From assembly GCA_030157755.1 (NCBI GenBank), contig JAOAUD010000148.1:1-42779 (forward strand): a stretch of 42,779 bases of DNA, given 5' to 3'. A program made the position numbers and the translations under genes. The notes under the pieces are model-generated. The model searched no databases, was not told the DNA's origin, and worked only from the letters and a program-made list of their open reading frames with translations. Numbering within the stretch: position 1 is the stretch's first letter; the number at the start of each line of letters is the position of its first letter. Shown in pieces: positions 10,834 through 32,253 of this stretch. The DNA comes from Candidatus Nanopelagicales bacterium (lineage in GTDB: Bacteria; Actinomycetota; Actinomycetes; S36-B12; UBA10799).

Positions 10834-11325
10834 GTGGCCGATAGCAGTTTCGACATCGTCAGCAAGGTTGATCGACAGGAAGTTGACAACGCCCTCAATC
10901 AAGCCGCCAAGGAGCTCTCCCAACGCTTCGACTTCCGGAATACGGGCGCACAGATCGAATGGAATGGCGAGCTCGGTGTCGAATTGACGGCCAACACCGA
11001 AGAGCGCGTCAGCGCCGCTCTCGAGGTATTCAGAGACAAGCTCGTCAAGCGCAAGATCTCTCTCAAGGCTCTCGAAGTCGACGAACCAAGGCTATCTGGG
11101 AAGGAGAGCAAGATTTCGGCGAGATTCCAGGCCGGGATCACTCAGGAACAAGCCAAGAAACTCGGCAAGATGATCCGCGACGACGGCCCCAAGGGTGTCA
11201 AGGTGCAGATTCAAGGCGACGAATTGCGAGTTTCCTCGAAGTCCCGCGACGATCTGCAGGCCGTTCAGCAACAACTGCGCGAGGCGGACCTGGATTTTGC
11301 GGTCCAGTTCGTCAACTATCGCTAG
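10834..11325 (+). CDS. yajQ: YajQ family (UPF0234) nucleotide / cyclic-di-GMP-binding protein
   Basis: (V)[36 protein letters not shown]...[25 protein letters not shown] is the characteristic ~163-aa YajQ sequence. GTG start at 10834 with GAAGGAG 7 nt upstream. The longer track ORF would read through tRNA-Tyr. Confidence 0.88.
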
Positions 11326-11336: not shown

Positions 11337-11759
11337 ATGAACTCCCAACTGGTAGTGGCTGCGGCCATCGTCGACGACTTGGACGCACCCAGACACTTGC
11401 TGGCCGCAAGGCGGTCGGCGCCGTCGAAGTACGCAGGTCTGTGGGAATTCCCAGGCGGCAAAGTCGAACCAGGCGAGGAACCCATGGCAGCTCTGCATCG
11501 GGAACTCGGTGAAGAGCTTGAGGTGAGCGTCCTACTAGGCCCCGAGATCATCAACGAAGAAGCAGCTTCGTGGCCGGCCGCGGACGGAATCGAGATCCGG
11601 CTGTGGCTCGCTCAGGTGACCACCGGGAAACCAACCGCAGGCGTTGCCCACGATGAAGTCCGCTGGCTAGGCAGGCACGAGTGGGCCGACGTGGCATGGC
11701 TGCGTCCCGATCTCCCGATGCTCGATGCGTTGGCAGCAAGCGGCCGATTCGGCGACTAG
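11337..11759 (+). CDS. mutT: Nudix hydrolase, MutT-like (8-oxo-dGTP diphosphatase family)
   Basis: 140 aa with the Nudix box GGKVEPGEEPMAALHRELGEELEV. ATG at 11337, just after the yajQ stop. Confidence 0.83.
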   Translation: MNSQLVVAAAIVDDLDAPRHLLAARRSAPSKYAGLWEFPGGKVEPGEEPMAALHRELGEELEVSVLLGPEIINEEAASWPAADGIEIRLWLAQVTTGKPTAGVAHDEVRWLGRHEWADVAWLRPDLPMLDALAASGRFGD

Positions 11760-12067
11760 ACCAAGTCAGTGTTGAGGGTCGACGCAGCGGCGGCCGAGCT
11801 CACACTGACGGGCAGCCAGGCAAGCGCATCCGTGGGGCAGACGTCGATGCAGATGCCGCAATCCATGCACAGGCCGTAGTCGATGCGGAAGTCGGTCAAC
11901 TCCAGCGTCGATCTTCCGCGCGGGCCAGCGTTCGGATCGTGCGTCTTGTCAGCCACTAGTTCGATGCACCACACCGGGCATTCACGAACGCAGATCATGC
12001 AGCTAGTGCACTTCGCCGCGTCAAGCTCAATGGACCCCCGACGCCGACGTGGCGCACCCGCGGTCAT
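11756..12067 (-). CDS. NuoI-like 2x[4Fe-4S] ferredoxin-type protein (stand-alone paralog)
   Basis: Two CxxCxxCxxxCP motifs (CTSCMICVRECP and CMDCGICIDVCP), spaced as in NuoI/HycF-type subunits. The ATG at 12065-12067 overlaps the upstream stop (ATGA) and is preceded by GGAGG. Confidence 0.8.
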   Translation of the reverse strand: MTAGAPRRRRGSIELDAAKCTSCMICVRECPVWCIELVADKTHDPNAGPRGRSTLELTDFRIDYGLCMDCGICIDVCPTDALAWLPVSVSSAAAASTLNTDLV

Positions 12068-12546
12068 TGTCGGCCTCCATTGATCCACTCTTCGTTTACT
12101 CCTGGCACCGGCTTGGGTCGGCGGCGACGCGTCGCTCCGCTAACGGCACCCGGTTCGTAGAGGCCAGGCCACGCTTTGTCGACCCGTGGCTCGAGCGCTG
12201 CGCTGCGCTGCAACGGCGGTGGGTCAGCGGCAGTGATCAGCACCCGAAGATCGCCATTCCCAGCGAATTCGACACCGTTCTCGTCGTGCGCCTCACGCTC
12301 ATGCCAGGCAGCCGCCGGGAACACCTCCACCAACGATGGAATGCGTTCCTCTCGCCGGACTTCAATCCGCGACATGGCCCGCCTTGTCGCATCAGCGGAC
12401 ATGACATGAGTCACAACCTCCGTAACCTGGTCGCCGAGATCTACAGCAACCAGCAGGTCGAAGAAGCGTAGGCCTGAATCACGCAGGTAGCGGTGTTGTG
12501 AGACCCATTCGTCAGCAGCAACGGTTGTTGTTTCGGGCAAGATCAT
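12064..12546 (-). CDS. NuoC-like (complex I 30-kDa subunit family) protein (stand-alone paralog)
   Basis: 160 aa. The core FPAAAWHEREAHDENGVEFAG aligns with the canonical NuoC in this window ([21 protein letters not shown]). Its ATG overlaps the upstream stop (ATGA at 12543-12546). Confidence 0.72.
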   Translation of the reverse strand: MILPETTTVAADEWVSQHRYLRDSGLRFFDLLVAVDLGDQVTEVVTHVMSADATRRAMSRIEVRREERIPSLVEVFPAAAWHEREAHDENGVEFAGNGDLRVLITAADPPPLQRSAALEPRVDKAWPGLYEPGAVSGATRRRRPKPVPGVNEEWINGGRQ

Positions 12547-12926
12547 GCGTTGACCCGGAGCGCAAGTGAATTCAGTGCCTCAGCAACATCCTGAGGTTGA
12601 GGTGGGCAGCCGGGAACCATGACGTCTACTGGGATGAGGTCCGCGATTCCCGGAACGACTGAATATGAATCCCAATACGGTCCACCGGAAATCGTGCACA
12701 CACCGAACGCGACGACGGCTCGCGGAGTGGGCAATTCCTCGTAAGACCGGCGAACAAGGTCCGCATTGGCCTTCGTCACGGTTCCAGCGACCACCAGAAC
12801 GTGCAGCGTGGGTTCCACGGCCAAGGCAGCAGCCACGAATTCCGGTTTTACTCGCCAGAGATGAACCCCTTCGGCAGCCTCCACGGCGCAGCATGCGAGA
12901 TTCAACTCGGTGACAGACATACCCAC
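12543..12926 (-). CDS. NuoB-like (NADH:quinone oxidoreductase 20-kDa / hydrogenase small-subunit family) FeS protein, N-terminally short (stand-alone paralog)
   Basis: 127 aa. LACCAVE, VVAGTV, FGVCTISGGPY and VPGCPPQP align with [23 protein letters not shown] and LPGCPPRP of the canonical NuoB at 34995-35549. All four cluster-N2-type cysteines are retained. Confidence 0.8.
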   Translation of the reverse strand: MGMSVTELNLACCAVEAAEGVHLWRVKPEFVAAALAVEPTLHVLVVAGTVTKANADLVRRSYEELPTPRAVVAFGVCTISGGPYWDSYSVVPGIADLIPVDVMVPGCPPQPQDVAEALNSLALRVNA

Positions 12927-13007
12927 GCGGGCAACATTACGCCTGATACCTACCCGCCACGCACCCCGCGCGTTTGGAATTACGCAACCTGACGGACACT
13001 ATTAGGC

Positions 13008-14870
13008 GTGCCCAAAGAGACTGTTCAGCTTGACCAGGTGATCATCCGATTTGCCGGGGACAGCGGCGATGGCATGCAGTTGACTGGCGACCGCTTCACC
13101 GCTGAGACGGCGACGTTCGGTAACGACCTCTCCACACTGCCTGACTTCCCCGCAGAGATCCGCGCACCAGCAGGGACTTTGCCTGGCGTATCTGCGTTCC
13201 AGCTCCACTTTGCGGATCACGACATCATGACCCCCGGCGACGCTCCCAACGTACTCGTAGCGATGAATCCGGCGGCTCTCAAGGCGAACCTCAAGGATCT
13301 GCCACGCGGCGGCGATCTCATCGTCAACACAGATGAGTTCACCAGTCGGAATCTGTCGAAGGTCGGCTATGCCGACAACCCAATCGAAGACGGGTCCCTC
13401 GAGTCCTACAACGTGCATCCCATCGCGCTGACTTCTTTGACAGTCCAGTCATTGAAGGACTTCGACCTGACCAAAAAAGAGGCGGAGCGCGCGAAGAACA
13501 TGTTCGCCCTCGGCCTGCTGTCGTGGCTCTACGAGCGGCCCACCGATGGCACCGAGCGCTTTCTGCACGAGAAGTTTGAACGTAAGCCGGAGATCCTCAA
13601 GGCGAACCTGGCGGCGCTACAGGCTGGCTGGAACTACGGCGAAACGACTGAAGACTTCTCGGTTCGCTACGAGATCAAGCCGGCCCCACTTGCCGAAGGC
13701 ACCTACCGCAACATCAGCGGAAACCTCGCTCTCGCGTATGGCCTAGTGGCGGCGGGTCAACAAACCAAGTTGCCGGTATATCTCGGCACCTACCCGATCA
13801 CTCCAGCCAGCGACATCCTGCATGAACTGAGCAAGCACAAGAAATTTGGCGTGCGCACATTCCAGGCCGAAGACGAAATCGCCGGTATCGGTGCGGCGAT
13901 CGGTGCTTCATACGGCGGTTCGCTCGGTGTGACAACAACGTCAGGCCCTGGGGTCGCATTGAAGTCCGAAGCGATCGGTCTAGCGGTAGCGCTTGAATTG
14001 CCACTGATAGTTGTTGACGTGCAGCGCGGTGGCCCATCGACCGGGCTGCCCACCAAGACCGAACAGGCAGACTTGTTGCAGGCCATGTTCGGACGCAACG
14101 GCGAAGCACCCGTTCCGATCATTGCGCCGCAGTCACCGTCCGACTGCTTCGACGCCGCCCTGGAGGCTGCTCGGATCGCTACCACGTACCGGACGCCGGT
14201 ATTCCTGCTATCGGACGGCTACCTGGCGAACGGTTCCGAACCGTGGCAAGTCCCCAACGTCAGCGAACTGCCAGATTTGACGGTCACGTTCACGACTGAA
14301 AACAACTGGACGAACGAGGACGGATCGACTGAGTTCATGCCGTTCGCGCGTGACCCGGAAACGCTCGCTCGACCGTGGGCGATCCCTGGAACCCCAGGAC
14401 TCGAGCACCGCATCGGTGGCATTGAGAAGGCCGACATCACTGGCCACATCTCGTATGACCCCGACAACCACGACAAGATGGTCCGGCTGCGCCAGGCGAA
14501 GGTCGACGGCATCGCCAAGACGATTCCAGACCTCGAGGTCGACGATCCGACCGGCGACGCGAAGGTGTTGGTCATCGGCTGGGGTTCGACCTTCGGGCCC
14601 ATCGGGGCAGCCTGTCGGCTCGTCCGTGACGGTGGCGGAAAGGTTGCGCAGGCACACCTACGGCACCTCAATCCGTTCCCTGCCAACACCGGCGACATCT
14701 TGAAGCGGTACGACCGCGTGATCGTTCCGGAAATGAACCTTGGGCAGCTCTGCATGTTGCTGCGCGCGAAGTTCTTGGTCGACGCCATCAGCTACAACCA
14801 AGTCCGTGGAATGCCGTTCAAGTCGCACGAACTCGAAGCCGTCATCAAGGACGTGATTTCCAATGTCTGA
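13008..14870 (+). CDS. korA: 2-oxoglutarate:ferredoxin oxidoreductase, alpha subunit
   Basis: 620 aa. The N-terminus VIIRFAGDSGDGMQLTG is typical of KorA, followed by the pyruvate-ferredoxin oxidoreductase core domain (TYPITPASDILHEL...). The 8-nt overlap with korB suggests an operon. Confidence 0.92.
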   Translation: MPKETVQLDQVIIRFAGDSGDGMQLTGDRFTAETATFGNDLSTLPDFPAEIRAPAGTLPGVSAFQLHFADHDIMTPGDAPNVLVAMNPAALKANLKDLPRGGDLIVNTDEFTSRNLSKVGYADNPIEDGSLESYNVHPIALTSLTVQSLKDFDLTKKEAERAKNMFALGLLSWLYERPTDGTERFLHEKFERKPEILKANLAALQAGWNYGETTEDFSVRYEIKPAPLAEGTYRNISGNLALAYGLVAAGQQTKLPVYLGTYPITPASDILHELSKHKKFGVRTFQAEDEIAGIGAAIGASYGGSLGVTTTSGPGVALKSEAIGLAVALELPLIVVDVQRGGPSTGLPTKTEQADLLQAMFGRNGEAPVPIIAPQSPSDCFDAALEAARIATTYRTPVFLLSDGYLANGSEPWQVPNVSELPDLTVTFTTENNWTNEDGSTEFMPFARDPETLARPWAIPGTPGLEHRIGGIEKADITGHISYDPDNHDKMVRLRQAKVDGIAKTIPDLEVDDPTGDAKVLVIGWGSTFGPIGAACRLVRDGGGKVAQAHLRHLNPFPANTGDILKRYDRVIVPEMNLGQLCMLLRAKFLVDAISYNQVRGMPFKSHELEAVIKDVISNV

Positions 14871-15888
14871 TACCGCCGTCCCCATCGCACTGAAGGCGAA
14901 GGACTTCAAGAGCGACCAAGAGGTCCGCTGGTGCCCCGGCTGCGGCGACTACGCAATTCTGGCTGCAGTCCAGTCGTTCCTGCCGGAACTCGGAATTCCC
15001 AAGGAAAACATCTGCTTCGTATCAGGCATTGGGTGTTCGTCCCGATTCCCGTACTACCTCACGACCTACGGAATGCACTCAATCCACGGGCGTGCACCAA
15101 CAATCGCCACCGGCCTGGCGACGTCACGACCAGACCTCTCGGTGTGGGTCGTGACGGGTGACGGAGACGCGCTGTCCATCGGTGGTAACCATCTGATCCA
15201 CGCTCTGCGTCGCAATGTCAACCTGAAAATCCTGCTATTCAACAACCGTATCTACGGGCTCACCAAGGGGCAGTACTCGCCGACATCCGAGATCGGCAAG
15301 ATCACGAAGTCGACCCCGATGGGTTCACTCGACTACCCGTTCAATCCGCTGTCGTTGGCCTTGGGTGCAGAGGCAACCTTCGTCGCCCGGACGATCGATT
15401 CCGACCGTAAGCACCTCACGGACGTGCTGCGCGCAGCTGCCGAGCATGAGGGCTCAGCGTTGGTTGAGATCTACCAGAACTGCAACATCTTCAACGACGG
15501 CGCATTCGACCTTCTCAAGGATGCCGATAGCCGCGACGACGAGTTGATTCGCCTTGTTGATGGTGAACCGATCGTGTTCGGCGCCGAAGGACAGCACGCA
15601 GTTGTGCGCAATGCTCACGGCGGGCTGAAGATCGTGCCGACCGACTCGGTGGACGCCAGCGAGATCGTCACCCACGATGCTCATTCATCCGACACGACGA
15701 CGGCCTTTGCGCTCACGCGCTTGTCGGACCCTGAGACTCTGCACCACACGCCGATCGGTGTGCTGCGCCACGTTGAGCGCCCAAGCTACGACCGCCTGAT
15801 GGCAGAGCAGATGACCATCGCGGCCGAAAATGGGGTCGGTGACCTGCAGTCTCTGCTCAAGGGCTCAGACACCTGGACGATCGACTAG
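14863..15888 (+). CDS. korB: 2-oxoglutarate:ferredoxin oxidoreductase, beta subunit (TPP-binding)
   Basis: 341 aa. WCPGCGDY motif, GIGCSSRF, and the TPP motif GDGDALSIGGNHLIHALRRNVNLKILLFNNRIYGLTKGQ. Confidence 0.92.
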   Translation: MSDTAVPIALKAKDFKSDQEVRWCPGCGDYAILAAVQSFLPELGIPKENICFVSGIGCSSRFPYYLTTYGMHSIHGRAPTIATGLATSRPDLSVWVVTGDGDALSIGGNHLIHALRRNVNLKILLFNNRIYGLTKGQYSPTSEIGKITKSTPMGSLDYPFNPLSLALGAEATFVARTIDSDRKHLTDVLRAAAEHEGSALVEIYQNCNIFNDGAFDLLKDADSRDDELIRLVDGEPIVFGAEGQHAVVRNAHGGLKIVPTDSVDASEIVTHDAHSSDTTTAFALTRLSDPETLHHTPIGVLRHVERPSYDRLMAEQMTIAAENGVGDLQSLLKGSDTWTID

Positions 15889-20013: not shown

Positions 20014-21576
20014 CTAGCGAACGAAGATCGATGCCTTTTCAGCCAGATCAAGGAACGGCTGGGGGATGATTCCCAGAACGATCGTCAGTGCCAGTCCAGC
20101 CGCGATCGCGATCGCGGTGAACGAGCTCGGGATGACGACCGTCGGACCGTCAGCCTGCGGCTCCGTGAAGAACATGATCACGATGACACGACCGTAGAAG
20201 AACACCGCGATTGCGCTGGCGATCACCGCGACGACAACAAGCCATCCGGCGCCGCCGGCGACACCCGCTTCAAACACCGCAAACTTCCCAATGAATCCAG
20301 CAGTTAGCGGGATGCCCGCGAAGCTCAATAGGAAGATGGTGAAGGCGCCAGCAACCCAAGGGGACCGCTTACCGAGGCCAGCCCAGGACGACAGGTGCGT
20401 TGCCTCGCCGGTGGAGTCTCGAACGAGCGAAACCACCCCGAATGCACCGATCGTTGCGACGCCGTAGGCGAGCAGGTAGAACATCGCTCCACCAATGCCC
20501 TGCTCGTTGGTCGCGATGACGGCGATCAAGAGGAACCCAGCATGTGCGATGGACGAGTACGCGAGCATCCGCTTCACGTCGGTTTGCGTCAACGCGATGA
20601 TCACGCCCACGAACATCGTCAGGATTGCAATCACCCAGAACATGGGGCGCCAATCCCAACGCAGGCCACCAAGCGCGACGTACATGATGCGAAGCATGGC
20701 GCCGAACGCGGCGAGCTTCACACACGCAGCCATGAAGCTGGTGATCGACGTTGGCGAACCCTGGTAGACGTCTGGCGCCCACTGATGGAACGGCACAGCC
20801 GCGACCTTAAAGAACAGGCCCACCGAAATGAGTGCCATGCCTGCAATCAGCAAGCCGTTCTGACCGGCGTTGGCGTTAACTGCATCAGCGATTCCGCCAA
20901 GGTCAACAGTCCCTGCAAAGCCGTAGAGCATCGCTGCTCCGTAAAGGAAGAAACCTGAGCTGAAGGCTCCAAGCAGGAAGTACTTCATCGCAGCTTCTTG
21001 GCTGAGCAGACGACGACGTCGAGCCATGCCGGCTAGCAGGTAGAGCGGCAGCGACATGATTTCGAGCCCGACGAACAGGATCAGCAAATCGCTGCCTGTA
21101 ACGAAGAGCAACATGCCACCGACACTGAACAGGAACAGTGGCCAAATCTCAGTGGTCAACCAACCGCGCTTGGTGAACTCTCGTTCATCGACGCTGCCTG
21201 GCAGTGCGTTGGCTCGCGCGGCGAAAGCGTCCCCGGCCGAGTCAACTCCCTTTTCAGCCACCAGCAAAGCGGCCATGATCGCAAGGATCAGCAGGCTGCC
21301 TTGCAGGAACAATGAAGGTCCGTCGACCGCAACGGCACCGGCAGCTGCCAATGCACGCTGACCGGCCAGCGAAACGACCAGGATGAAGGCGACGATCAAG
21401 GTTGCGAACGTCAGGACCAACTGGACATTGCGGCGTGCTTCGCGCGGAACAAATGCCTCCACGAGCACCGACACAACAGCCATCCCCAGCACAACCAGGA
21501 TTGGCGCGATCTGGTGGTAATCGATCGACGGCATTTCAAACGTTTGATTGGCGGCTGCCCCAAGTAACTGAATCAT
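20014..21576 (-). CDS. nuoN: NADH-quinone oxidoreductase subunit N
   Basis: 520-aa polytopic membrane protein of the Mrp-antiporter-like family. It is the last gene of the nuo operon, and its ATG overlaps the nuoM stop (ATGA at 21573-21576). Confidence 0.92.
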   Translation of the reverse strand: MIQLLGAAANQTFEMPSIDYHQIAPILVVLGMAVVSVLVEAFVPREARRNVQLVLTFATLIVAFILVVSLAGQRALAAAGAVAVDGPSLFLQGSLLILAIMAALLVAEKGVDSAGDAFAARANALPGSVDEREFTKRGWLTTEIWPLFLFSVGGMLLFVTGSDLLILFVGLEIMSLPLYLLAGMARRRRLLSQEAAMKYFLLGAFSSGFFLYGAAMLYGFAGTVDLGGIADAVNANAGQNGLLIAGMALISVGLFFKVAAVPFHQWAPDVYQGSPTSITSFMAACVKLAAFGAMLRIMYVALGGLRWDWRPMFWVIAILTMFVGVIIALTQTDVKRMLAYSSIAHAGFLLIAVIATNEQGIGGAMFYLLAYGVATIGAFGVVSLVRDSTGEATHLSSWAGLGKRSPWVAGAFTIFLLSFAGIPLTAGFIGKFAVFEAGVAGGAGWLVVVAVIASAIAVFFYGRVIVIMFFTEPQADGPTVVIPSSFTAIAIAAGLALTIVLGIIPQPFLDLAEKASIFVR

Positions 21577-23168
21577 CGGGCACCTCCCTCAACCGTGCCA
21601 ACAACTCTTTGCGCTTCTTGCTTGGCAGGTCCTGATTCAGCGAGCGGTTTCACCGCAGGTTCAGGGTCTCGTTGACCTGTCTGCAACATGACTCGGTCGA
21701 CAGCAGGGTTGATCACGTCGAGAACCGGCTTCGGGTAGACACCAAGCGCTACCAGGAGCACCAACATCGGAATGATCGCCAATGCCTCGCGGCCCTTGAT
21801 GTCGGTCATCTTCTCGCAGCCCGCTTTGACCGGTCCGGTCATCGTGCGCTGGTACAAGTACAGGATGTAGATCGCGGCCAGGACGATTCCGAGCGTCGCA
21901 ATGACTGCGGCCACTGTGTACTTCTCGAAGGTTCCGACCAGCACGAGGAACTCGCTGACGAAGCTGCTCAGACCTGGCAGCGACAGCGAACTCAGGCCAG
22001 CGATCAGGAACAGACCGGCCAGCACGGGGGCAACCCGGTAGACGCCTCCGTAGTCAGCGACGAGTCGCGATCCGCGCCGTGTCATCAAGAAGCCTGCGAT
22101 CAGGAACAACGCGCCAGTCGAGAAGCCGTGGTTCAACATGTAGAACGTCGAACCTGACTGCCCCTGGGTTGTCATCGCGAAGATTCCGAGACCGATGAAA
22201 CCGAAGTGCGAGATCGAGGTGTAGGCGATAAGTCGCTTGAGGTCGGTCTGACCAATTGCCAACAACGCGCCGTAGAGGATTCCGACGACACACAACACGA
22301 TGATCACCGGTGCATAGAACGCCGAGGCCGCCGGGAAGATCGGTAGGCAAAGCTTGATCATTCCGAAGGTACCGACTTTGTCGAGCACACCGACGAGGAG
22401 CACAGCCGTGCCAGGAGTCGACGCTGCCGCCGCATCAGGTAACCACGTGTGGAATGGCACCAATGGAGCCTTTATCGCGAAGGCAATGAAGAAGCCGAGG
22501 AACAGCAGCTTCTGAGTGCCTGGATCGATGTTCAGGTTCGTCAGGGTCGTGAAGTCGAACGTTCCGGTTCCCAGTTCTTGGGCGCTGACGACATAGAGGC
22601 CGATGAGTGCGGCCAACATGAGCAGTCCGCCGACCAAGCTGTAGAGCAGGAACTTGACTGCCGCGTACTGGCGTCCAGGTCCGCCGTAGCGGCCGATCAG
22701 GAAGTACACCGGGATCAGCATTGCCTCGAAGAAGACGTAGAACAGGAACACGTCTGTCGCTGCGAATACGCCGACCATGAATGTCTCGAGGATCAGCAGC
22801 AGTGCGAAGTAACCCTTGACGCTGCCCATCGCGTCGTCGGCGTCATTCCACGCGGCCAGGATGACCAGCGGCACAAGAATTACCGACAGCGCGATCAGGA
22901 CGAGCGAGATTCCGTCTACTCCGACCGAATACGAGATGCCGAAGCTGCGAATCCAGGAGTGGGATTCCACAAACTGGAATTCCGCAGTTGAGTCTGCATC
23001 AAATTGCAGCGCCATCGCGATCACGAGAATCAGCGGGATAACGCTGAAGACCACGGCCAAGCGCTTGGCGAGTTCGTTTGATGCCTTCGGCAACAGCATG
23101 ATGACAAAGGCGCCAATAAGCGGGATGACACCAATTGTGGTGAGCCATGGGAACGACATATCGGTCAC
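21573..23168 (-). CDS. nuoM: NADH-quinone oxidoreductase subunit M
   Basis: 531-aa antiporter-like membrane subunit ([12 protein letters not shown] motif). Its GTG overlaps the nuoL stop; an alternative ATG lies at 23159. Confidence 0.92.
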
Positions 23169-25126
23169 GTCCTCACCAGAATCAGGGCAGCGATCACAAG
23201 GACCGCGCCTCCCAGCATGGACAGGGCGTAGGAGCGAGCAAATCCTGTTTGGATCCGACGCATCCGACCCGACAAGCCGCCGAGTGCAGCAGCAATCCCA
23301 TTCACCAGACCATCAATTCCACGATTGTCGAAGAACACCAGTGAGCGAGTCAGCCACTGGCCGGGGCGCATGAAGACTTCTTCGTTGAAGGCGTCGCCAT
23401 AGAGGTCGTGGCGAGCGGCAACTGTCAGCGGTGATACGTGCTGTGGGGCAACCAGCGGAACATCGCGGCGGTACTGCAGATACGCGATGGTGGCACCGAT
23501 GATCACCAGTGCGAGGCTCGCGGCCTCCATCACCAGCGAACTCACAGCGAGTTCGGTTTCCTCGAACCCAGTGACTGGAGCCAGCCAGGTTTCGATCGCT
23601 CCGGCGAGCATGAATCCCGCGACCACAGAAAGGAACGCGAGGATCGCCATCGGGATCCACATGACCGAAGAAGACTCGTGCGGATGCTTGTTGTCCTCGG
23701 TCCAGCGACTCTTGCCAGTGAACGTCATCGTCCACAGTCGAGTCATGTAGAACGCCGTGATTCCAGCGCCGAGCAGCGCCACAGCGCCGACGATCCAGTT
23801 CACGCCGAACGCGGCCTCGATGATCTTGTCTTTGGAGTAGAAGCCAGCGAACGGTGGGACACCCATGATCGCCAGCCAGCCACAGCTGAAGGTGATGAAG
23901 GTGATGACCATGACTTTTCGCAGTGCCCCGAATCTGCGCATGTCGAGTTGGTCGTTCATCCCGTGCATGACAGACCCGGCGCCAAGGAACATGTTGGCCT
24001 TGAAGAAGCCGTGGGTCACAAGGTGGAAGATCGCGAAGACGTATCCGACTGGTCCGAGACCTGCCGCCAGGATCATGTATCCGATCTGACTCATCGTGGA
24101 GCCAGCCAGAGCTTTCTTGATGTCATCCTTCGCGCAACCGATGATTGCACCAAACATCAACGTGATAGCTCCGACGATCATGACGACAGTTCTCGCTGTC
24201 GGGGTGGCGTCGAATATTGGCCCGCTTCGGACGATGAGGTACACGCCCGCGGTCACCATGGTTGCCGCATGGATGAGCGCCGAGACAGGCGTCGGACCTT
24301 CCATCGCGTCGAGCAGCCATGACTGCAACGGGAACTGGGCGGACTTACCGCAAGCTGCGAGCAGCAGCATGAGGCCGATCCACGTCATCGTTGTGGGATT
24401 GCCTTCGGCGGCGTTGTTCAGAACGCCAGGGAAGGTGACGGACCCGAAAGTCACGAACATGAGCATGATCGCGATCGACAGTCCGACGTCACCAACGCGG
24501 TTGACGACGAAGGCCTTCTTGGCTGCTGTGGCGGCGGTCGGCTTGTACATCCAGAAACCGATCAGCAGGTACGACGCCAGACCGACGCCTTCCCAGCCGA
24601 CGTACAGCAGCAAGTAGCTGTCCGCTGTGACGAGCAACAACATCGCCGCAACGAACAAGTTCAGGTAAGCGAAGAACTTCCGCTTTTCCGGGTCGTGCTT
24701 CATGTACCCGAGTGAGTAAATGTGGATCAGTGATCCCACGAAGGTAATGAGGAGCACGAAGACGATGGACAGCTGATCAAGCTGCATTCCAAGTGGAGCT
24801 TGGAACCTGCCGACTATGACCCAGTCCCAGATATGGAGATTGACGGGTCGATCGTTCGCCGGAAGTCCTAGCATCTTGAGGTACATGATCGCGCCGACGA
24901 CAAAGGCGCCACATGACATCGCGATCGCGAAGTACGGGCCCCACTTGTCGGTGCGCTTGCCGCCGATCAGCAGCAGGGCGGCTCCAAGCAAAGGCAGAGC
25001 GAGGAGAAGCCACATGTAGGAGAACGCACCTGTGGCAACCGCCGGGTTGTTCACGGTGGGCTCGATGTTGTTGGCATCAATCTGGCTCGATGCAACAACG
25101 GATGCAAATGTCTGAGTCAAGTTCAT
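23165..25126 (-). CDS. nuoL: NADH-quinone oxidoreductase subunit L
   Basis: 653-aa antiporter-like subunit ([38 protein letters not shown]) with a C-terminal extension consistent with the lateral helix. Confidence 0.93.
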
Positions 25127-25137
25127 TTCGCCGCCCC

Positions 25138-25437
25138 CTAGTACTTCAGCAAGCTAGGTTCGTCGACCGAAGCCGAGCGGCGGGTGCGGTAGATGGTCAC
25201 GATGATCGCGAGCCCCACGACGACCTCAGCGGCCGCAACAACCATGACGAAGAAGGCGATCGTCTGCCCATACAGGTTGCCGTTCTGTTGGGCGAACGCA
25301 ACGAATGCCAGGTTCGAGGCATTAAGCATCATTTCCACGCACATGAACACGATCAGGGCGTTTCGACGGACCAAGACTCCAAGGACACCGAGCGAGAACA
25401 GGATCGCTGAGAGAACCAGGTAGTGCGTTGTACTCAT
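25138..25437 (-). CDS. nuoK: NADH-quinone oxidoreductase subunit K
   Basis: 99 aa with three TM helices, [25 protein letters not shown] signature. Confidence 0.93.
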
Positions 25438-26276
25438 CGCTGCTCACCTGCCTCATCGTCATCGACAGTCACAACCGTGTGTCCCTCCGAAATTTCGTCG
25501 ACTTCGACCTCAGCGGCGACATCTACGGGGCGCACGTTGCCGCGCTCCTGCAGTGGGCCTGGGACCGATTCAGGAACGACCGATCCGTCTGGTGCCAAAG
25601 CAGGAGTATCAATGGCGTTGTGCCGGGCGTAGGTACCGGCCGGTGGCAGGTTTCCTGGCAGTTCGCCGGTCGCCGCGTAGCGTGCAAAACGAGCGATCGA
25701 GCGTTGTTCCTGCGTTGGCTTCGGCGTGTGACGCTCGCGGTGTGCCAGCAACATAGCGCCGAGTGCAGCGATGATCAGCAGCGCCGAAGTGACTTCGAAC
25801 GCCACGATGTAGTCAGTGAAGATGATCTTCGCGATTCCTTGCAGGTTGCCGCCATACTGCGAGTTGGCTGCTTCGAGCGATGGCTCCGGAACTCCAGACA
25901 AGCCGTTAACGATCGCTCCGATCAACAGACCGGCGAACGCGAGAACCAAGATGATCGCGGCCCATCGCTGCCCGCGGATCGTTTCGATCAATGAATCTGA
26001 TGCATCAACGCCGACGATCATCATGACGAAGACGAACAACATCATGACTGCGCCGGTGTAGACGATGATCTGCACCATCCCGAGGAACGGGGCCTGCAGT
26101 GCCACGTAAAGAATCGCGAGGTTGATCATCGTCAGGGCGACGAAGAGTGCGCTGTGCACCGGCTTGCGGCTCAGCAGCATCCCGAGTGCCCCGATAACGC
26201 AGAGGGTGGCGCACACCCAGAAGACAATCTCGGCGCCGACGTCAGTGCCGGAGGCGAGAAGCGAAGTTGCGCTCAC
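25434..26276 (-). CDS. nuoJ: NADH-quinone oxidoreductase subunit J (with a hydrophilic C-terminal tail)
   Basis: 280 aa. The N-terminal ~170 aa form the NuoJ membrane core ([42 protein letters not shown]). The gene overlaps nuoI and nuoK by 4 nt at each end. Confidence 0.9.
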
Positions 26277-26986
26277 TGCGCTCCTCCCTTTTTCTCATCC
26301 GCTGCAAGGTCGGCAAGAACTTCTTCGCGATCGTTGGCAACACGCTCTTGCGCGACCTTGATCGCGGCTTCCTCATTCGCAGCGGCATCTGCCAGGCGTT
26401 CGTCAGCGGTCGCTGCCTGGGCCGAAACCTTCTCGACTTCGCGGGCTGCGACCTCGTCTGCCTGAGCTGGTGTGGAGCCGGTGACCTTGCCGTCGTAGTA
26501 GTCCTTGGCCGTCGTACCAGCAACCATCGAATGTGGCGGCGGAACCATGCCTGGCATCAGCGGGGCAAGGAGATCATCTTTCTCGTAGATAAGCTTCTCG
26601 CGACTGTTGTCGGCTAGTTCGTACTCGTTCGTCATGGTCAAAGCCCGTGTTGGACATGCCTCAATGCAGAGCCCACACAGAATGCAGCGAAGGTAGTTGA
26701 TTTGGTAGACCGCGCCGTAACGCTCGCCCGGTGAGTGACGCTCGCCCTCTTCGTTGTCCGCACCTTCGACGTAGATCGCATCGGCTGGGCAGGCCCAGGC
26801 ACACAGCTCGCAGCCCACGCACTTTTCCAGCCCATCTGGATGCCGGTTGAGTTGATGGCGACCGTGGAAGGCGGGCTTGGGCGGGTACTTGTCCTTGTCT
26901 TCGGGGTACTGCTCGGTATTGACCTTGCGGAACATGGTGAAGAAGGTCGTCGAGAAGCCGCGTACGGCTTGAGGTAGTTCAGCCAC
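26273..26986 (-). CDS. nuoI: NADH-quinone oxidoreductase subunit I, with a ~65-aa Ala/Glu-rich C-terminal extension
   Basis: [12 protein letters not shown] and [12 protein letters not shown] 4Fe-4S motifs. I chose the GTG at 26984-26986 ([11 protein letters not shown]...), which overlaps the nuoH stop by 8 nt; the track start at 27022 is also possible. Confidence 0.9.
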
Positions 26987-28346
26987 CGTGCACCTCCTCG
27001 GACGAAATCGTCTTTGATCCACCGTCGCCGGTTGTTGCCCCTACATCTGCCACCACAGTCCGGCGGGCAGGACGGTACTCCTGTCCGGGTAGTGGAGGCA
27101 CCGGGAAACCGCCGCGGTTCGGCTTGAATTTCTCTGGGATCACGTTCTCCGCCAGGTTTTTCGCTCTGCGCTTCTTGACATTTGCCCCAAGAATCCACAG
27201 GACGGCCACCGTGAGGATGATTCCAGCGGTAATGGAAAGCGGTGTCGGAGTGAGTCCTTGCTCCTGGCTGACACCCCGGATGATGGCGATGATCAAGATC
27301 CACAATACGGAGATCGGGATCAGGACCTTCCAACCAAATCGCATGAACTGGTCGTAGCGGAAGCGAGGCAACGTACCGCGCAGCCAGATGAAGATGAAGA
27401 TGAAGATGAAGACCTTCAAGAAGAACCAGATCATCGGGTACCAGCCCTCGTTGGCACCACTCCAGATCGAGATGGGCCATGGGGCTCGCCAGCCACCGAG
27501 GAACAACGTGACCGCGACCGCTGAAACCGTCACCATGTTGATGTACTCAGCCAAGAAGAACAGAGCGAACTTCATCGTTGAGTACTCGGTGTGGAAGCCA
27601 CCGACGAGCTCCGATTCGGCCTCAGGAAGGTCGAACGGTGCCCGGTTGGTTTCGCCGACCATCGCCGTGGCGTAGATCAAGAAGCTCGGCAACACGAGCA
27701 ATCCGAACCACAAGTCGGTTTGGCCGTTGACGATGCTCGAGGTGGACATGGTTCCGGCGAAAAGGAACACGGCAACGAAGCTCAGGCCCATCGCAATTTC
27801 GTAGGAAATCATCTGGGCACTCGAACGCAGACCACCAAGCAGCGGATACGTCGAGCCAGATGCCCAACCGGAAAGCACCACACCGTAGATGCCGATGGAG
27901 GCAATCGCCAGGATATAGAGCACGGCCACCGGGAAGTCTGTGAGCTGCAGTGGTGTCGTGTGACCAAAGATCGAGACCTCGGGTCCGAACGGAATAACGG
28001 CCCACGCCAGGTACGCGGGAACCACAGAGAGGATCGGCGCAAGGATGAAGACTGCCTTGTCTGCCGCAGTTGGGAAGATCTCTTCCTTGAACGCGAGCTT
28101 CATACCGTCCATAAGGGACTGAAGCAGACCAAACGGTCCGGTTCGGTTCGGGCCAATGCGCTGCTGCATGCGAGCAACAACGCGTCGTTCGAACCAAATC
28201 GTGAAGAGCACGACAACAACAAGAATGACGAAGATGCCGATCACCTTGAGGATGATCAGCCACACCGGGTCGAGCCCGAACCAGAGCAGGGTCTGCTCAT
28301 TGGAAGTAATCGGACTGCCAGCGGTCACGGGTGCTTGTTCGTTCAT
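26979..28346 (-). CDS. nuoH: NADH-quinone oxidoreductase subunit H
   Basis: 455 aa. [39 protein letters not shown] and [11 protein letters not shown] signatures. Its ATG overlaps the nuoG stop. Confidence 0.94.
27387..27412 (-). repeat. Hexanucleotide tandem repeat (GATGAA)x4.3 inside nuoH, encoding FIFIFIFI
   Basis: Plus strand gatgaagatgaagatgaagatgaaga. On the coding strand it reads (TTCATC)n = (Phe-Ile)4, just upstream of the conserved [13 protein letters not shown]. Confidence 0.9.
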
Positions 28347-30952: not shown

Positions 30953-32253
30953 GAGGTCTTCACCCCCGAGAACACAACTGATGCGGCTGGATCGAATAGG
31001 TCGTCGGCGGCAGTGTGCGTGCCCGCCTCGAACTCACTGCGGAAGAGGTTGAGCGCCTGCGGGTATGGCGTTGCGGCAGCATCGCCAAGCGCGCAGAAGG
31101 AACGGCCGAGGATCTGGGCGCACAACTCGTTGAGAGTCGCGAGGTCTTCGGTCTTGCCCGTGCCGGACTTGAGGTTGTGCAACAGCTGGTCGATCCACCA
31201 CGTGCCTTCCCGGCACGGCGTGCACTTGCCGCAGGATTCGTGCTTGTAGAAATCAAGCCAGCCGGTGATTGCGCGAACCACTGAGACGGTCTCGTCGAAC
31301 ACCATCGGCGTCGCAGTTCCCAGCATCGTGCCGACGGCTTCCATGCCTTCGTACGAAAGCTCTGCGTCGAGGTGGTCTTCGGTCAGCATCGGAACAGACG
31401 ATCCGCCAACCACGAAGAACTTCAAGTTGTGGCCATCGCGGATTCCGCCGGCGTAACCGAGCAGTTCGCGCATGGTGATGCCCAGCGGCGCTTCGAAGAT
31501 TCCGGGGTTGTTCACGTGACCGGAGACCGCAAACACCTTGATGCCCTTGGACTTTTCGGTGCCGTACGAGGCGTACCAATCGCCACCGTTGCGAATGATC
31601 GCTGGAACGCTCGCGATGGTCTCAACGTTGTTGACGACGGTCGGGCAGGCATACAAACCGGCCACTGCGGGGAATGGCGGCTTCAGACGTGGCTGCCCGC
31701 GCATGCCTTCGAGCGAACTGAGCAGCGCGGTTTCTTCACCACAGATGTACGCACCAGCACCACCGTGCACGGTGATGTCGAGGTCGAATCCTGAGCCGAG
31801 GATGTTCTTGCCGAGGTAACCGTTGTCGTACGCATCGCGAACTGCAGCGTGCATGCGTCGAATGACGTGCGGGACTTCACCGCGAATGTAGACGAAAGCG
31901 TGATTTGCGCGAATCGCATACGACGCAATGATCATGCCTTCAATCAGGTGCTGCGAGCTCGCGAGCATCAGCGGGATGTCCTTGCAGGCACCCGGCTCAG
32001 ACTCATCAGCGTTCACAACCAAGTAGTGCGGCTTGCCGTCACCTTGCGGAACGAAGCTCCACTTCATGCCAGTGGGGAATCCAGCGCCACCACGGCCACG
32101 CAGCCCAGACTCTTTGAGCTCGCCAATGATTGCGTCGGGATCCATCTCCAGCGCCTTGCGAAGTGCCTGGTATCCGTAGTGCCGCTCGTAACCGGCGACG
32201 GTGTAGGAGTCCGGCTCATCCCAGTGGGCGGTGAGGTTCGGGGTCAGTGCCAT
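30949..32253 (-). CDS. nuoF: NADH-quinone oxidoreductase subunit F (NADH/FMN-binding)
   Basis: 434 aa. GLRGRGGAGFPTGMKW, ESEPG, and N3 cluster cysteines ESCGKCTPCREG. Confidence 0.95.
   Translation of the reverse strand: MALTPNLTAHWDEPDSYTVAGYERHYGYQALRKALEMDPDAIIGELKESGLRGRGGAGFPTGMKWSFVPQGDGKPHYLVVNADESEPGACKDIPLMLASSQHLIEGMIIASYAIRANHAFVYIRGEVPHVIRRMHAAVRDAYDNGYLGKNILGSGFDLDITVHGGAGAYICGEETALLSSLEGMRGQPRLKPPFPAVAGLYACPTVVNNVETIASVPAIIRNGGDWYASYGTEKSKGIKVFAVSGHVNNPGIFEAPLGITMRELLGYAGGIRDGHNLKFFVVGGSSVPMLTEDHLDAELSYEGMEAVGTMLGTATPMVFDETVSVVRAITGWLDFYKHESCGKCTPCREGTWWIDQLLHNLKSGTGKTEDLATLNELCAQILGRSFCALGDAAATPYPQALNLFRSEFEAGTHTAADDLFDPAASVVFSGVKTS

What the first reader, a model, noticed from the sequence alone, without database searches (positions are those of the whole stretch)
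11756..12926. Orphan NuoB-like / NuoC-like / NuoI-like iron-sulfur triad with no NuoD-type or membrane partner, divergent from korAB
Seen in sequence:
- Three ORFs are translationally coupled by ATGA start/stop overlaps (12543-12546 and 12064-12067).
- Their products align with the canonical NuoB, NuoC and NuoI encoded about 20 kb away in this same window.
- The NuoB-like protein keeps all four N2-type cysteines (LACCAVE, GVCTISGG, PGCPP) but lacks roughly the first 45 residues of NuoB.
- The NuoC-like protein keeps the WHERE..D..G core and has a divergent Arg-rich tail.
- The NuoI-like protein keeps both CxxCxxCxxxCP motifs.
- No NuoD/[NiFe]-large-subunit homolog and no NuoH/L/M/N- or Mrp-type membrane gene is adjacent. 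The triad is bounded by a convergent mutT (the stop codons overlap) and by the divergent korAB.

Established knowledge: in complex I and in the group-4 hydrogenase relatives (Ech, Mbh/Mbx, Hyc/Hyf, Fpo), the NuoB-type cluster sits at the interface with the NuoD-type subunit. A B/C/I set without D is therefore not a recognised architecture. Two-subunit actinobacterial KorAB also lacks a built-in ferredoxin subunit and needs an external acceptor.

Inference: this may be a soluble three-cluster electron-transfer module dedicated to KOR. It could act as an acceptor or donor, or as an adaptor feeding complex I or menaquinone. Alternatively it is a relic of a degraded hydrogenase-like operon.
Basis: partly seen in the sequence, partly recalled or inferred. 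Interest (0 to 1): 0.75.

Follow-up and report, generated by a model that had tools for sequence, protein, structure and literature searches.

The report
Membrane-less remnant of second complex I
Three small iron-sulfur genes beside the 2-oxoglutarate oxidoreductase genes of a freshwater actinobacterium are the conserved, still-functional leftover of a second complex-I-like operon that lost all its membrane subunits, and they may be an electron partner of that enzyme.

Summary
Three translationally coupled minus-strand genes (11756-12926) encode a short NuoB-like, a NuoC-like and a NuoI-like protein. All 12 cluster cysteines are present, and the genes lie 81 bp from divergent korAB.

The triad is not an unrecognised architecture. 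It sits where most Actinomycetes carry the "nuo2" operon (nuoA2-B2-C2-H2-I2-J2-K2-L2-M2-N2). That operon has no D, E, F or G genes, is annotated in Streptomyces as SCO4599-4608, and its function is called unclear. It also usually lies divergent from korAB.

In this Candidatus Nanopelagicales lineage, and in Raineyella and many MAGs, all seven membrane genes are gone. B has lost its N-terminus and quinone-cavity loop, and I has lost both termini. The remnant is nevertheless old and well supported as a clade. It is intact, under purifying selection, and widespread (at least 120 short-B clusters).

I read it as a soluble three-[4Fe-4S] module. KorAB is its most likely partner here, but that link is unproven. 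About 10 of roughly 40 triad-only loci lack adjacent korAB, and the conserved NuoC-like subunit hints at an unseen NuoD-type partner.

Verdict: new variant of a known but uncharacterised system; moderate interest.

The parts
12543..12926 (-). triB: short NuoB/PSST-like protein (127 aa). It has the four N2-type cysteines (CC at residues 12-13, C77, C107). It lacks the N-terminal segment, the quinone-cavity loop and the C-terminal extension.
   Evidence: Pfam PF01058 at 9e-21. Below the NCBIfam NuoB cut-offs. Alignments. AF2 model has pLDDT 94.8 and matches NuoB chains at TM about 0.75.
12064..12546 (-). triC: NuoC/30-kDa-like protein (160 aa). It carries the WHERE motif and a conserved Arg-rich tail, WPGLYEPG..TRRRRPKPVPGVNEEW.
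   Evidence: Pfam PF00329 at 7.6e-20. The tail is shared with NuoC2 of nuo2 operons but not with canonical NuoC. In the AF2 model residues 1-100 have pLDDT above 90 and a NuoC fold. The tail (101-160) has pLDDT about 55 and almost no secondary structure.
11756..12067 (-). triI: NuoI-like 2x[4Fe-4S] protein (103 aa from the ATG at 12067). It lacks the N- and C-terminal extensions of NuoI and NuoI2.
   Evidence: Fer4 dicluster Pfam hits. The best NCBIfam hit is NuoI at 5.6e-15, below the cut-off. Both CxxCxxCxxxCP motifs are present. The protein is 100% identical to P0217, 'MAG: 4Fe-4S binding protein [Candidatus Nanopelagicales bacterium]'.
12927..13007 (.). 81-bp divergent control region shared by triB and korA. 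It contains the direct repeat ATTACGC (12936-12942 and 12979-12985). It also contains a 10-nt inverted repeat (12939-12948 / 13000-13009).
   Evidence: The region is nearly identical in the window, L002 and L007, although triB is only 70-85% identical between them. Repeats. The consensus scan found no sigma-70-like promoter or terminator.
13008..14870 (+). korA, the alpha/gamma subunit of the two-subunit 2-oxoacid:ferredoxin oxidoreductase.
   Evidence: ORF. Orthologs carry PF01558 and PF01855. 64-98% identical in related loci.
14863..15888 (+). korB, the beta subunit (TPP and a single [4Fe-4S] cluster).
   Evidence: ORF. Orthologs carry PF02775.
11337..11759 (+). NUDIX (MutT-like) gene, convergent with triI. 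Synteny neighbour only.
   Evidence: Pfam PF00293 at 3.6e-15. Present in only some related loci.
10834..11325 (+). yajQ (DUF520). It marks the downstream end of both triad and full nuo2 loci.
   Evidence: Pfam PF04461 at 3e-56. Found downstream of the triad or of nuoN2 in most loci.
20014..35950 (-). Canonical nuoA-N operon (14 genes, including nuoD 32906-34276). It is the only NuoD-type gene in the window and part of the same conserved synteny block.
   Evidence: ORFs. The same order (canonical nuo, then polyprenyl synthase, then korAB, then triad) is seen in L089, L105, L115 and L118.

Best explanation
The triad is the peripheral iron-sulfur core (NuoB2-NuoC2-NuoI2) of the actinobacterial second complex-I-like system, 'nuo2'.

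Shown:
- In most Actinomycetes nuo2 is a ten-gene operon, A2-B2-C2-H2-I2-J2-K2-L2-M2-N2. It has no D, E, F or G genes. It lies between korAB (divergent) and yajQ, downstream of the canonical nuo operon.
- In this Candidatus Nanopelagicales lineage all seven membrane genes are gone.
- B has lost its N-terminus and the RFG...PRQ(A/S)D loop. I has lost both terminal extensions.
- The three genes remain intact, translationally coupled and under purifying selection.
- They share a highly conserved 81-bp control region with korAB.

Inferred:
- The products form a soluble complex of about 43 kDa. It would carry three [4Fe-4S] clusters: two in I and one N2-type cluster in B. C would act as scaffold, and its extended Arg-rich tail would bind a partner.
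- The module can no longer reduce quinone or pump protons. It would work as a dedicated low-potential electron wire.
- In this organism its most likely partner is KorAB. KorAB is a two-subunit enzyme with a single cluster and no ferredoxin-like delta subunit, and its physiological acceptor is unknown in Actinobacteria.
- Electrons from 2-oxoglutarate oxidation would enter through the NuoI-like clusters and leave from the N2-like cluster. The acceptor is unidentified; it could be the canonical NuoD or complex I, or a soluble carrier.
For: Origin from nuo2:
- The triC-based genome scan plus ORF/blastp typing gave 48 full nuo2 loci with korAB within 10 kb and 20 without. None had a NuoD hit.
- Intermediate forms exist: L019 has only A-B-C-H-I, and L135 is triad-only with an untrimmed B.
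- The window is colinear with S. coelicolor: SCO4562-75 (nuo), SCO4594/95 (KOR) and SCO4599-4608 (nuo2) (PMC8981147, PMC9739823).
- The C tail is shared only with NuoC2, and triI is closer to NuoI2 (47-54% identity) than to NuoI (35%).

Signs of function:
- 15 of 15 triad B proteins keep CCxxE, and 14 of 15 triad I proteins keep both cysteine motifs.
- 81 of 89 short-I clusters keep both motifs.
- dN/dS against L002 is 0.036 for B, 0.119 for C and 0.080 for I.
- The triad-only clade is monophyletic in 98-100 of 100 bootstraps.
- At least 120 short-B clusters exist.
- A cultured isolate, Raineyella sp. LH-20, has the same layout.

Loss of the quinone and membrane interface:
- 0 of 15 triad B proteins have RFG or PRQ[AS]D, against 66 of 67 NuoB2 proteins with PRQ[AS]D.
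- The truncations are visible in the alignments.
- triB still folds as a compact NuoB domain (pLDDT 94.8).

Link to KOR:
- korAB is divergent and within 400 bp in about 21 triad-only loci. It is within 3 kb in about 30.
- The intergenic region is conserved.
- The acceptor of mycobacterial KOR is unidentified, and a membrane redox partner has been suggested (PMC2773412).
Against: - About 10 intact triad-only loci have no korAB within at least 2.5 kb upstream (about 2.1 kb for L148). They are L091-93, L116, L117, L124-126, L138 and L148. They occur at four or more places in the tree. The module therefore persists without the linkage.
- The synteny could simply be inherited. The block nuo - korAB - nuo2 - yajQ is ancestral.
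- The triad evolves much faster than korAB: 68-85% against 98% identity between the window and L002.
- NuoC is known as a NuoD-binding subunit (fused to NuoD in E. coli). Its conservation and its disordered tail point to a NuoD-type partner that I could not look for genome-wide.
- From my own knowledge, M. tuberculosis has KOR but no nuo2. I did not test this.
- There is no expression or biochemical evidence for the triad itself.
- dS is saturated, so the dN/dS values are rough.
Confidence: 0.55

Rival explanations
1. The triad works with the canonical complex I, or with a NuoD-type protein, independently of KorAB. For example, B-C-I plus canonical NuoD (or a NuoD2 encoded elsewhere) could form an alternative or auxiliary Q-module-like subcomplex. 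It could also be a hybrid or isoform set, or an assembly or repair factor for complex I.
For: - Nanopelagicales-type triad loci with enough upstream sequence show the canonical nuo operon a few kb upstream. In korAB-less loci the triad follows nuoN and polyprenyl synthase directly.
- The NuoC-like subunit is conserved and has an extended, disordered tail typical of a partner-binding arm.
- Streptomyces has a separate nuoD2 (PMC8388888). A hybrid nuo/nuo2 machinery has been proposed (PMC9239103).
Against: - B lacks the N-terminus and the loop that line the NuoD/NuoH quinone cavity. I lacks the terminal segments present in NuoI and NuoI2.
- The B, C and I positions in complex I are already filled by canonical subunits encoded in the same genome.
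- No NuoD paralog lies within 10 kb in any of about 170 loci, apart from the unrelated clusters L153 and L156.
Confidence: 0.25
2. The triad is a non-functional relic of the degraded nuo2 operon, on its way to being lost.
For: - It is clearly a product of gene loss.
- It evolves faster than its neighbours.
- One locus, L072, has lost the first cysteine motif of I.
Against: - The reading frames are intact and the start/stop overlaps are kept.
- All 12 cysteines are conserved across a deep clade, down to about 40% identity.
- dN/dS is well below 1.
- The family is retained in genome-streamlined freshwater lineages with 43-50% GC.
- At least 120 B clusters and 89 I clusters exist.
Confidence: 0.04
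3. The triad is a general soluble multi-cluster ferredoxin. It serves several low-potential enzymes rather than one dedicated partner, and korAB is only one neighbour among several.
For: - It persists without adjacent korAB.
- In L091 it is coupled to an upstream EamA gene instead.
- The NuoI-like subunit also resembles PorD/KorD and other 8Fe ferredoxins.
Against: A simple ferredoxin role would not need three subunits, an N2-type tandem-cysteine cluster or a NuoC scaffold. All three genes are always kept together.
Confidence: 0.12

Closest known systems
Actinobacterial nuo2 cluster (Streptomyces coelicolor SCO4599-4608; nuoA2, B2, H2, I2, J2-N2)
   Same: - Same chromosomal position: canonical nuo ... 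korAB <> nuo2 ... yajQ.
- B, C and I cluster with NuoB2, NuoC2 and NuoI2.
- The NuoC tail motif is shared.
- There are no D, E, F or G genes.
- The function is unknown ('unclear', PMC9239103).
   Different: - All seven membrane-subunit genes are absent.
- B lacks the N-terminus and the PRQ(A/S)D loop that NuoB2 keeps.
- I lacks both terminal extensions.
- The sequences are much more diverged.
- The NuoC-like gene of nuo2 is not recognised in the papers I read, which say that C is missing.
Q-module of respiratory complex I (NuoB/Nqo6, NuoC/Nqo5, NuoD/Nqo4, NuoI/Nqo9)
   Same: - Same three folds and the same cluster ligands (N2, N6a, N6b).
- Same B then C gene order.
- AF2 models superpose on NuoB (TM about 0.75) and on the N-terminal domain of NuoC (rmsd about 2 A).
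   Different: - There is no NuoD, so no quinone site.
- The membrane-contact segments are missing.
- All three proteins score below the curated NCBIfam cut-offs.
Complex-I relatives without the NADH module: ferredoxin-dependent photosynthetic NDH-1, and Campylobacter complex I fed through flavodoxin by 2-oxoglutarate:acceptor oxidoreductase (my own knowledge)
   Same: - The NuoE/F/G input module is missing.
- A low-potential donor would plausibly enter at the NuoI end.
- There is a metabolic link to a 2-oxoacid oxidoreductase.
- The top PDB sequence hits of triB include NdhK.
   Different: Those systems keep NuoD/NdhH and the whole membrane arm, and they reduce quinone. The triad cannot.
Delta (ferredoxin-like) subunit of four-subunit 2-oxoacid:ferredoxin oxidoreductases (PorD/KorD)
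   Same: - It is a 2x[4Fe-4S] protein encoded next to the oxidoreductase genes.
- It could play the same relay role for a KorAB that lacks a delta subunit.
   Different: - triI scores 42 bits against a 60-bit cut-off for TIGR02179.
- It descends from NuoI2.
- It is transcribed divergently from korAB.
- It always comes with B and C.
Small-subunit modules of group-4 [NiFe] hydrogenases (MbhJ, HycG, EchC)
   Same: Homologous NuoB-type fold and proximal cluster.
   Different: - The similarity is much weaker: E about 1e-14 against 1e-21 for NuoB and NdhK.
- There is no large subunit and there are no Mrp-type genes.
- The ancestry traces to nuo2, not to a hydrogenase.

Membership tests
NuoB / PSST (complex I 20-kDa subunit) | Oxidored_q6 domain with the four N2 cysteines (CCxxE ... 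C ... CPP) | tested here: met
   PF01058 at 9e-21. The cysteines are conserved in 15 of 15 triad B proteins for CCxxE and in 14 of 15 for PGCPP.
NuoB / PSST (complex I 20-kDa subunit) | Scores above the curated family cut-off (NCBIfam NF005012 / TIGR01957) | tested here: not met
   107.6 bits against 116, and 101.9 bits against 142.7.
NuoB / PSST (complex I 20-kDa subunit) | N-terminal segment and the quinone-cavity loop (R-F-G ... S/G-P-R-Q-A/S-D) that face NuoD, NuoH and NuoA | tested here: not met
   0 of 15 triad B proteins carry RFG or PRQ[AS]D, against 66 of 67 NuoB2 proteins with PRQ[AS]D. Alignments. That this loop lines the quinone cavity is my own knowledge of complex I structures.
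NuoC / 30-kDa subunit | Complex1_30kDa domain and fold | tested here: met
   PF00329 at 7.6e-20. The AF2 N-terminal domain superposes on NuoC/NDUFS3 chains over 105 residues at rmsd about 2 A.
NuoC / 30-kDa subunit | Curated cut-off (TIGR01961), and encoded next to or fused with NuoD | tested here: not met
   59.5 bits against 122.45. There is no NuoD gene in the locus or in any related nuo2 or triad locus.
NuoI / TYKY | Two CxxCxxCxxxCP motifs | tested here: met
   Both motifs are present. They are kept in 14 of 15 triad loci and in 81 of 89 clusters.
NuoI / TYKY | Curated cut-off (TIGR01971) and the N- and C-terminal extensions | tested here: not met
   55 bits against 113. The extensions present in NuoI and NuoI2 are absent.
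Actinobacterial nuo2 system | Position between korAB (divergent) and yajQ, downstream of canonical nuo. B, C and I are closest to NuoB2, NuoC2 and NuoI2. | tested here: met
   Synteny. Trees. Shared C tail. Literature coordinates in PMC8981147 and PMC9739823.
Actinobacterial nuo2 system | Membrane subunits A2, H2, J2, K2, L2, M2 and N2 encoded in the cluster | tested here: not met
   No such ORFs lie between korA and yajQ in the window or in about 40 triad-only loci.
2-oxoacid:ferredoxin oxidoreductase delta subunit (PorD/KorD) | TIGR02179 membership and co-transcription with the alpha, beta and gamma genes | tested here: not met
   42.1 bits against 60.05. The gene is transcribed divergently from korAB.
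Group-4 [NiFe] hydrogenase module | [NiFe] large subunit (NuoD homolog) and Mrp/NuoL-type membrane genes alongside the small subunit | tested here: not met
   Neither is found in any locus. The PDB hits to MbhJ and HycG are weaker than those to NuoB.
Functional Fe-S electron-transfer complex | The three proteins assemble, and the clusters lie within electron-tunnelling distance | not testable with these tools
No multimer predictor was available.

The most novel reading that the evidence does not exclude
Nuo2 is the long-sought physiological acceptor system of actinobacterial KorAB. In most Actinomycetes KorAB would dock on the NuoI2/NuoB2 cluster chain of a NuoEFG-less complex I. That would form a proton-pumping 2-oxoglutarate:menaquinone oxidoreductase. 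In Nanopelagicales and Raineyella this has been pared down to a soluble three-cluster adaptor. It would hand KOR's low-potential electrons to another acceptor, and the NuoC tail would act as the docking arm.
Probability: 0.25. Interest if true: 0.8.

Novelty: new variant of a known kind. Interest (0 to 1): 0.55.

Why it matters
- The physiological electron acceptor of the aerotolerant actinobacterial KOR has been open since 2009. The authors of PMC2773412 could not identify it and suggested a membrane redox partner.
- The function of the Streptomyces nuo2 cluster is still described as unclear (PMC9239103).
- The recurrent korAB <> nuo2 / triad arrangement links these two unknowns into one testable hypothesis.
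- The triad-only form is a natural minimal construct: three small soluble proteins, present in a cultured isolate (Raineyella sp. LH-20). That makes it well suited to biochemistry.
- It shows that a NuoB-NuoC-NuoI subcomplex can be kept for a long time without NuoD or a membrane arm. This bears on how complex I modules evolve and are re-used.
- The family is common in Nanopelagicales, an abundant group of freshwater bacteria.

Tried and rejected
- **Exact-protein lookup of triB.** It found nothing, because the gene call on record uses a different start.
- **Search for a NuoD-like gene inside nuo2 gaps and long NuoC2 proteins.** The gaps hold ORFs without Pfam hits, or DUF2252, GST and SnoaL genes. 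The long NuoC2 proteins have only disordered low-complexity tails.
- **Hydrogenase-relic reading.** Rejected on ancestry and on the weak hits to MbhJ and HycG.
- **Promoter and terminator consensus scan of 11200-13300.** It found nothing.
- **Rfam scan.** It found only four tRNAs.
- **Literature searches** for a described B/C/I triad, for a KOR-nuo2 link, and for KOR in acI/Nanopelagicales genomes. None found anything specific.
- **First bootstrap script.** It timed out and was redone with a faster distance measure.
- **Genome-wide questions.** I could not check whether triad-bearing genomes encode a second NuoD, or korAB elsewhere. No tool reads whole genomes.
Full report
**1. The observation**

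On the minus strand of the window lie three ORFs:
- triB, 12543-12926, 127 aa.
- triC, 12064-12546, 160 aa.
- triI, 11756-12067, 103 aa from the ATG. An upstream GTG at 12088 would give 110 aa.

They are linked by ATGA start/stop overlaps at 12546-12543 and 12067-12064. The triI stop shares the palindrome CTAG (11756-11759) with the stop of a convergent NUDIX gene. korA starts 81 bp upstream of triB on the other strand (13008), and korB follows at 14863-15888.

Pfam assigns Oxidored_q6 (9e-21), Complex1_30kDa (7.6e-20) and dicluster Fer4 families. NCBIfam's best matches are NuoB, NuoC and NuoI, but all fall below the curated cut-offs. Identity to the canonical NuoB, NuoC and NuoI of the nuoA-N operon in the same window (20014-35950) is 31%, 30% and 35%. 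All quoted cysteine motifs are present.

One correction concerns the B protein. Its N-terminal deficit is about 25 residues against the in-window NuoB, and about 33 against Thermus Nqo6. It also lacks about 33 C-terminal residues and an internal loop (see section 4).

**2. Organism and abundance**

- triI is 100% identical to a protein named 'MAG: 4Fe-4S binding protein [Candidatus Nanopelagicales bacterium]', seen on 363 contigs.
- The triC cluster contains a member seen on 339 contigs, the longest 2.94 Mb, with the same organism name.
- The short B-like family has at least 120 clusters (at 90% identity) that are at least 50% identical to triB. Those that carry a source name are mostly from Actinobacteria or Nanopelagicales MAGs.
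- The short I-like family has 89 clusters.
- A profile search with the C-like family finds 106 representatives (at 50% identity) at E ≤ 1e-30.

**3. What the relatives look like**

I scanned species-representative genomes with a triC alignment. I then typed the ORFs of every locus by blastp against the window's own proteins.

In Streptosporangiales, Micromonosporales, Glycomycetales, a member of Streptomycetaceae and many MAGs, the triC homolog lies in a large cluster: nuoA2-B2-C2-H2-I2-J2-K2-L2-M2-N2. Of these loci, 48 have korAB divergent within 10 kb and 20 do not. None contains a NuoD hit. yajQ often closes the cluster, as it closes the triad here.

I checked other places where a NuoD might hide:
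- Gaps inside some clusters hold unrelated genes (DUF2252, GST-like, SnoaL) or ORFs without Pfam hits.
- Unusually long NuoC2 proteins carry only disordered low-complexity tails.

This is the 'nuo2' cluster already annotated in Streptomyces:
- S. ambofaciens has nuoA2, B2, H2, I2, (J), K2-N2 in one operon and a separate nuoD2 (PMC8388888).
- In S. coelicolor it is SCO4599-4608, next to SCO4596-98 (PMC9739823).
- The KOR genes are SCO4594/95 and the canonical nuo is SCO4562-75 (PMC8981147).
- Its function is described as unclear, and a hybrid with the canonical enzyme has been suggested (PMC9239103). That paper lists NuoC as missing. The Pfam hit on the gene between B2 and H2 shows that a NuoC-like gene is in fact present.

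The window is therefore colinear with this conserved block. The triad sits exactly where nuo2 should be.

**4. The triad-only form is a conserved derivative, not a one-off fragment**

The same layout (korBA <> B-C-I, then yajQ) occurs in:
- other Nanopelagicales MAGs (L001, L084, L089);
- unnamed metagenome contigs (L002, L005, L007);
- 'uncultured Actinomycetes' MAGs (L008, L011, L017, L025, L047);
- a Frankiaceae MAG (L077);
- the cultured Raineyella sp. LH-20, complete genome CP137003.1 (L087).

A metagenome scan with a short-B alignment added about 40 more loci.

In a concatenated B+C+I neighbour-joining analysis (393 columns, 68 taxa, canonical NuoB/C/I as outgroup), the results over 100 bootstraps were as follows:
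- The main triad-only group was monophyletic in 100.
- All triad-only loci together were monophyletic in 98.
- The full-nuo2 loci were monophyletic in only 7.

This fits a derivation of the triad from within or beside nuo2. Long-branch attraction is a caveat. Intermediates exist: L019 keeps only A-B-C-H-I, and L135 is triad-only with a B that still has a canonical-type N-terminus and loop.

Sequence anatomy:
- **Triad B.** It keeps CCxxE (15 of 15), the third cysteine and PGCPP (14 of 15). None of the 15 has RFG or PRQ[AS]D, whereas 66 of 67 NuoB2 proteins and the canonical NuoB have PRQ[AS]D. That stretch, together with the missing N-terminus, is the part of PSST/NuoB that lines the quinone cavity and contacts NuoD, NuoH and NuoA. 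This assignment rests on my own knowledge of complex I structures.
- **Triad I.** It keeps both CxxCxxCxxxCP motifs (14 of 15 loci; 81 of 89 clusters, the exceptions being mostly fragments). It lacks the N-terminal 'QYP' segment and the C-terminal extension of NuoI and NuoI2.
- **Triad C.** It keeps WHERE and a tail, WPGxxEPG...RRRRxKxVPGVxxEW. NuoC2 has a related tail (WPGAKEPGE...RRxxxPPGVP..W). Canonical NuoC does not.

dN/dS between the window and L002 is 0.036 for B, 0.119 for C and 0.080 for I, against 0.017 for korA and korB. dS is saturated, so these are rough values, but they clearly indicate purifying selection. The triad nevertheless evolves much faster than korAB.

Structure predictions:
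- triB is predicted as a compact, confident domain (pLDDT 94.8). It superposes on NuoB chains at TM about 0.75. Two helices (residues 14-35) stand where the canonical loop would be.
- triC has a confident NuoC-type N-terminal domain (residues 1-100, pLDDT above 90, rmsd about 2 A to NDUFS3/NuoC).
- Its tail (residues 101-160) has pLDDT about 55 and almost no regular structure. That is what one expects of an arm that folds on a partner.

**5. How firm is the link to KOR?**

For the link:
- Among triad-only loci with enough upstream sequence, about 21 have korA within 400 bp, divergently. About 30 have it within 3 kb (L017 and L047 were corrected by hand).
- The 81-bp korA-triB spacer is almost invariant between the window, L002 and L007, although triB itself is only 70-85% identical between them. 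It contains a repeated ATTACGC and a 10-nt inverted repeat. This suggests a shared operator.
- Two-subunit KorAB has a single [4Fe-4S] cluster and no ferredoxin-like delta subunit (my own knowledge).
- The physiological acceptor of mycobacterial KOR was not identified, and a membrane-associated partner was proposed (PMC2773412).

Against the link:
- About 10 intact triad-only loci have no korAB upstream. They are L091-L093, L116, L124 and L125 (GC 47-50%), and L117, L126, L138 and L148 (GC 66-72%).
- In nearly all of them the triad follows canonical nuoN after about 2 kb, with polyprenyl synthase annotated in between in L091 and L092. In L091 it overlaps an upstream EamA gene.
- These loci sit at four or more separate places in the triad tree. 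They keep all cluster cysteines.
- I could not determine whether those genomes encode korAB elsewhere.
- The linkage may also be partly historical, because the whole block is ancestral.

**6. Mechanism I consider most likely**

Shown:
- The triad is a reduced nuo2.
- It retains the ligands for three [4Fe-4S] clusters.
- It has lost the genes and the protein segments needed for a membrane arm and a quinone site.
- It is maintained by selection.
- In this organism it shares a conserved control region with korAB.

Inferred:
- B, C and I form a soluble complex. The two NuoI-type clusters and the N2-type cluster would form a short wire, as they do in complex I.
- The complex exchanges low-potential electrons with a partner. 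In this genome the best candidate is KorAB.
- The exit partner is unknown.
- The conserved NuoC-like subunit and its tail argue that a further protein binds. That protein might be a NuoD-type subunit (the canonical NuoD or an unlinked paralog such as Streptomyces nuoD2) or KorAB itself.

My confidence by step is about 0.9 for the origin from nuo2, about 0.75 for a functional soluble Fe-S module, and about 0.4-0.5 for KorAB as the partner.

**7. Comparison with known systems, and novelty**

The triad works like the B-C-I part of the complex I Q-module. It fails the membership tests for bona fide NuoB, NuoC and NuoI on three counts: the curated cut-offs, the quinone-site loop, and the NuoD and membrane context. 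It also fails the test for the full nuo2 system because it has no membrane genes.

It is not a hydrogenase relic. PDB hits to MbhJ and HycG are much weaker than hits to NuoB, and its ancestry traces to nuo2. It is not a PorD/KorD delta subunit either.

Functionally, the nearest analogies are complex-I relatives that take electrons from ferredoxin or flavodoxin instead of NADH. Examples are photosynthetic NDH-1, and Campylobacter complex I fed by 2-oxoglutarate:acceptor oxidoreductase (my own knowledge). Those keep NuoD and the membrane arm.

I found no paper describing the triad or the korAB-nuo2 association in the library searched. I therefore rate it a new variant of a known but uncharacterised kind.

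**8. Verdict**

The finding is real and more interesting than a stray fragment, but less exotic than proposed. Its main value is twofold. It offers a tractable minimal form of nuo2. It also ties nuo2 to the unanswered question of how actinobacterial KOR is re-oxidised. Interest 0.55.

Noticed in passing
window 12927-13007: The 81-bp korA-triB spacer is more conserved than the flanking triB coding sequence across the window, L002 and L007. It carries a direct repeat ATTACGC (12936 and 12979) and a 10-nt inverted repeat (12939-12948 / 13000-13009). It is probably a shared operator. No sigma-70-like consensus was found.
   Followed up: partly
L091, L092, L093, L116, L124, L125, L117, L126, L138, L148: These are intact triad-only loci without adjacent korAB. 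In most of them the triad follows the canonical nuoN after about 2 kb (polyprenyl synthase lies between them in L091 and L092). In L091 it overlaps an upstream EamA transporter gene. In the low-GC group NuoC has FHERE instead of WHERE. The NuoI-like protein there ends in a conserved ...PPSGRRKK tail, which the low-GC korAB-linked loci (L105, L115, L129) also carry.
   Followed up: partly
L019 (Streptosporangiaceae MAG) 7605-12581; L135 7770-9524: These are intermediate reduction states. L019 keeps nuoA2-B2-C2-H2-I2 and then yajQ, with no J2-N2. L135 is triad-only, but its B still has the canonical-type N-terminus and a PRRAD loop.
   Followed up: partly
L072 10450-10973: In this triad-only locus the NuoI-like gene has lost its first CxxCxxCxxxCP motif and appears as two overlapping ORFs. 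This could be decay or an assembly error.
   Followed up: no
P0038, P0051 (Streptomyces-type NuoC2): Some NuoC2 proteins are 400-518 aa long. They have Pro/Ala/Gly-rich disordered C-terminal tails that carry repeated 'RRTRTAAEGSASQ'-like motifs and no Pfam domain.
   Followed up: partly
L010 11435-14475; L035 7352-9725 and 11661-14289: Some nuo2 clusters are interrupted. In Micromonospora (L035) unrelated genes are inserted: DUF2252 between B2 and C2, and GST-like and SnoaL-like genes between H2 and I2. In Microbispora (L010) the H2-I2 gap holds only ORFs without Pfam hits. The cluster is therefore unlikely to be a single transcription unit there.
   Followed up: partly
L153 6960-10503; L156: A different second nuo cluster, nuoA-B-C-D-H with a NuoD, lies directly after a canonical-type nuoI-N run in L153. 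L156 is a short contig holding only nuoA-B-C-D. Both come from other, unidentified metagenomic lineages and are not the nuo2 type.
   Followed up: no
window 36062-42567 and 18995-19990: Probable menaquinone-pathway genes flank the canonical nuo operon. They are a geranylgeranyl-reductase-like FAD protein, a UbiE/MenG methyltransferase, an isochorismate-synthase-type gene, a MenD-like TPP enzyme and a polyprenyl synthase.
   Followed up: partly
window 7998-8588 (-): A 196-aa ORF has an Ala/Pro-rich, signal-like N-terminus and no Pfam hit. A counterpart of similar size (191 aa, also without a Pfam hit) lies in the same position in L002.
   Followed up: no
window 2722-2794, 7674-7747, 7773-7845, 10648-10728 (all -): Four tRNA genes. 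One of them lies between the Fe-ADH gene and yajQ.
   Followed up: no
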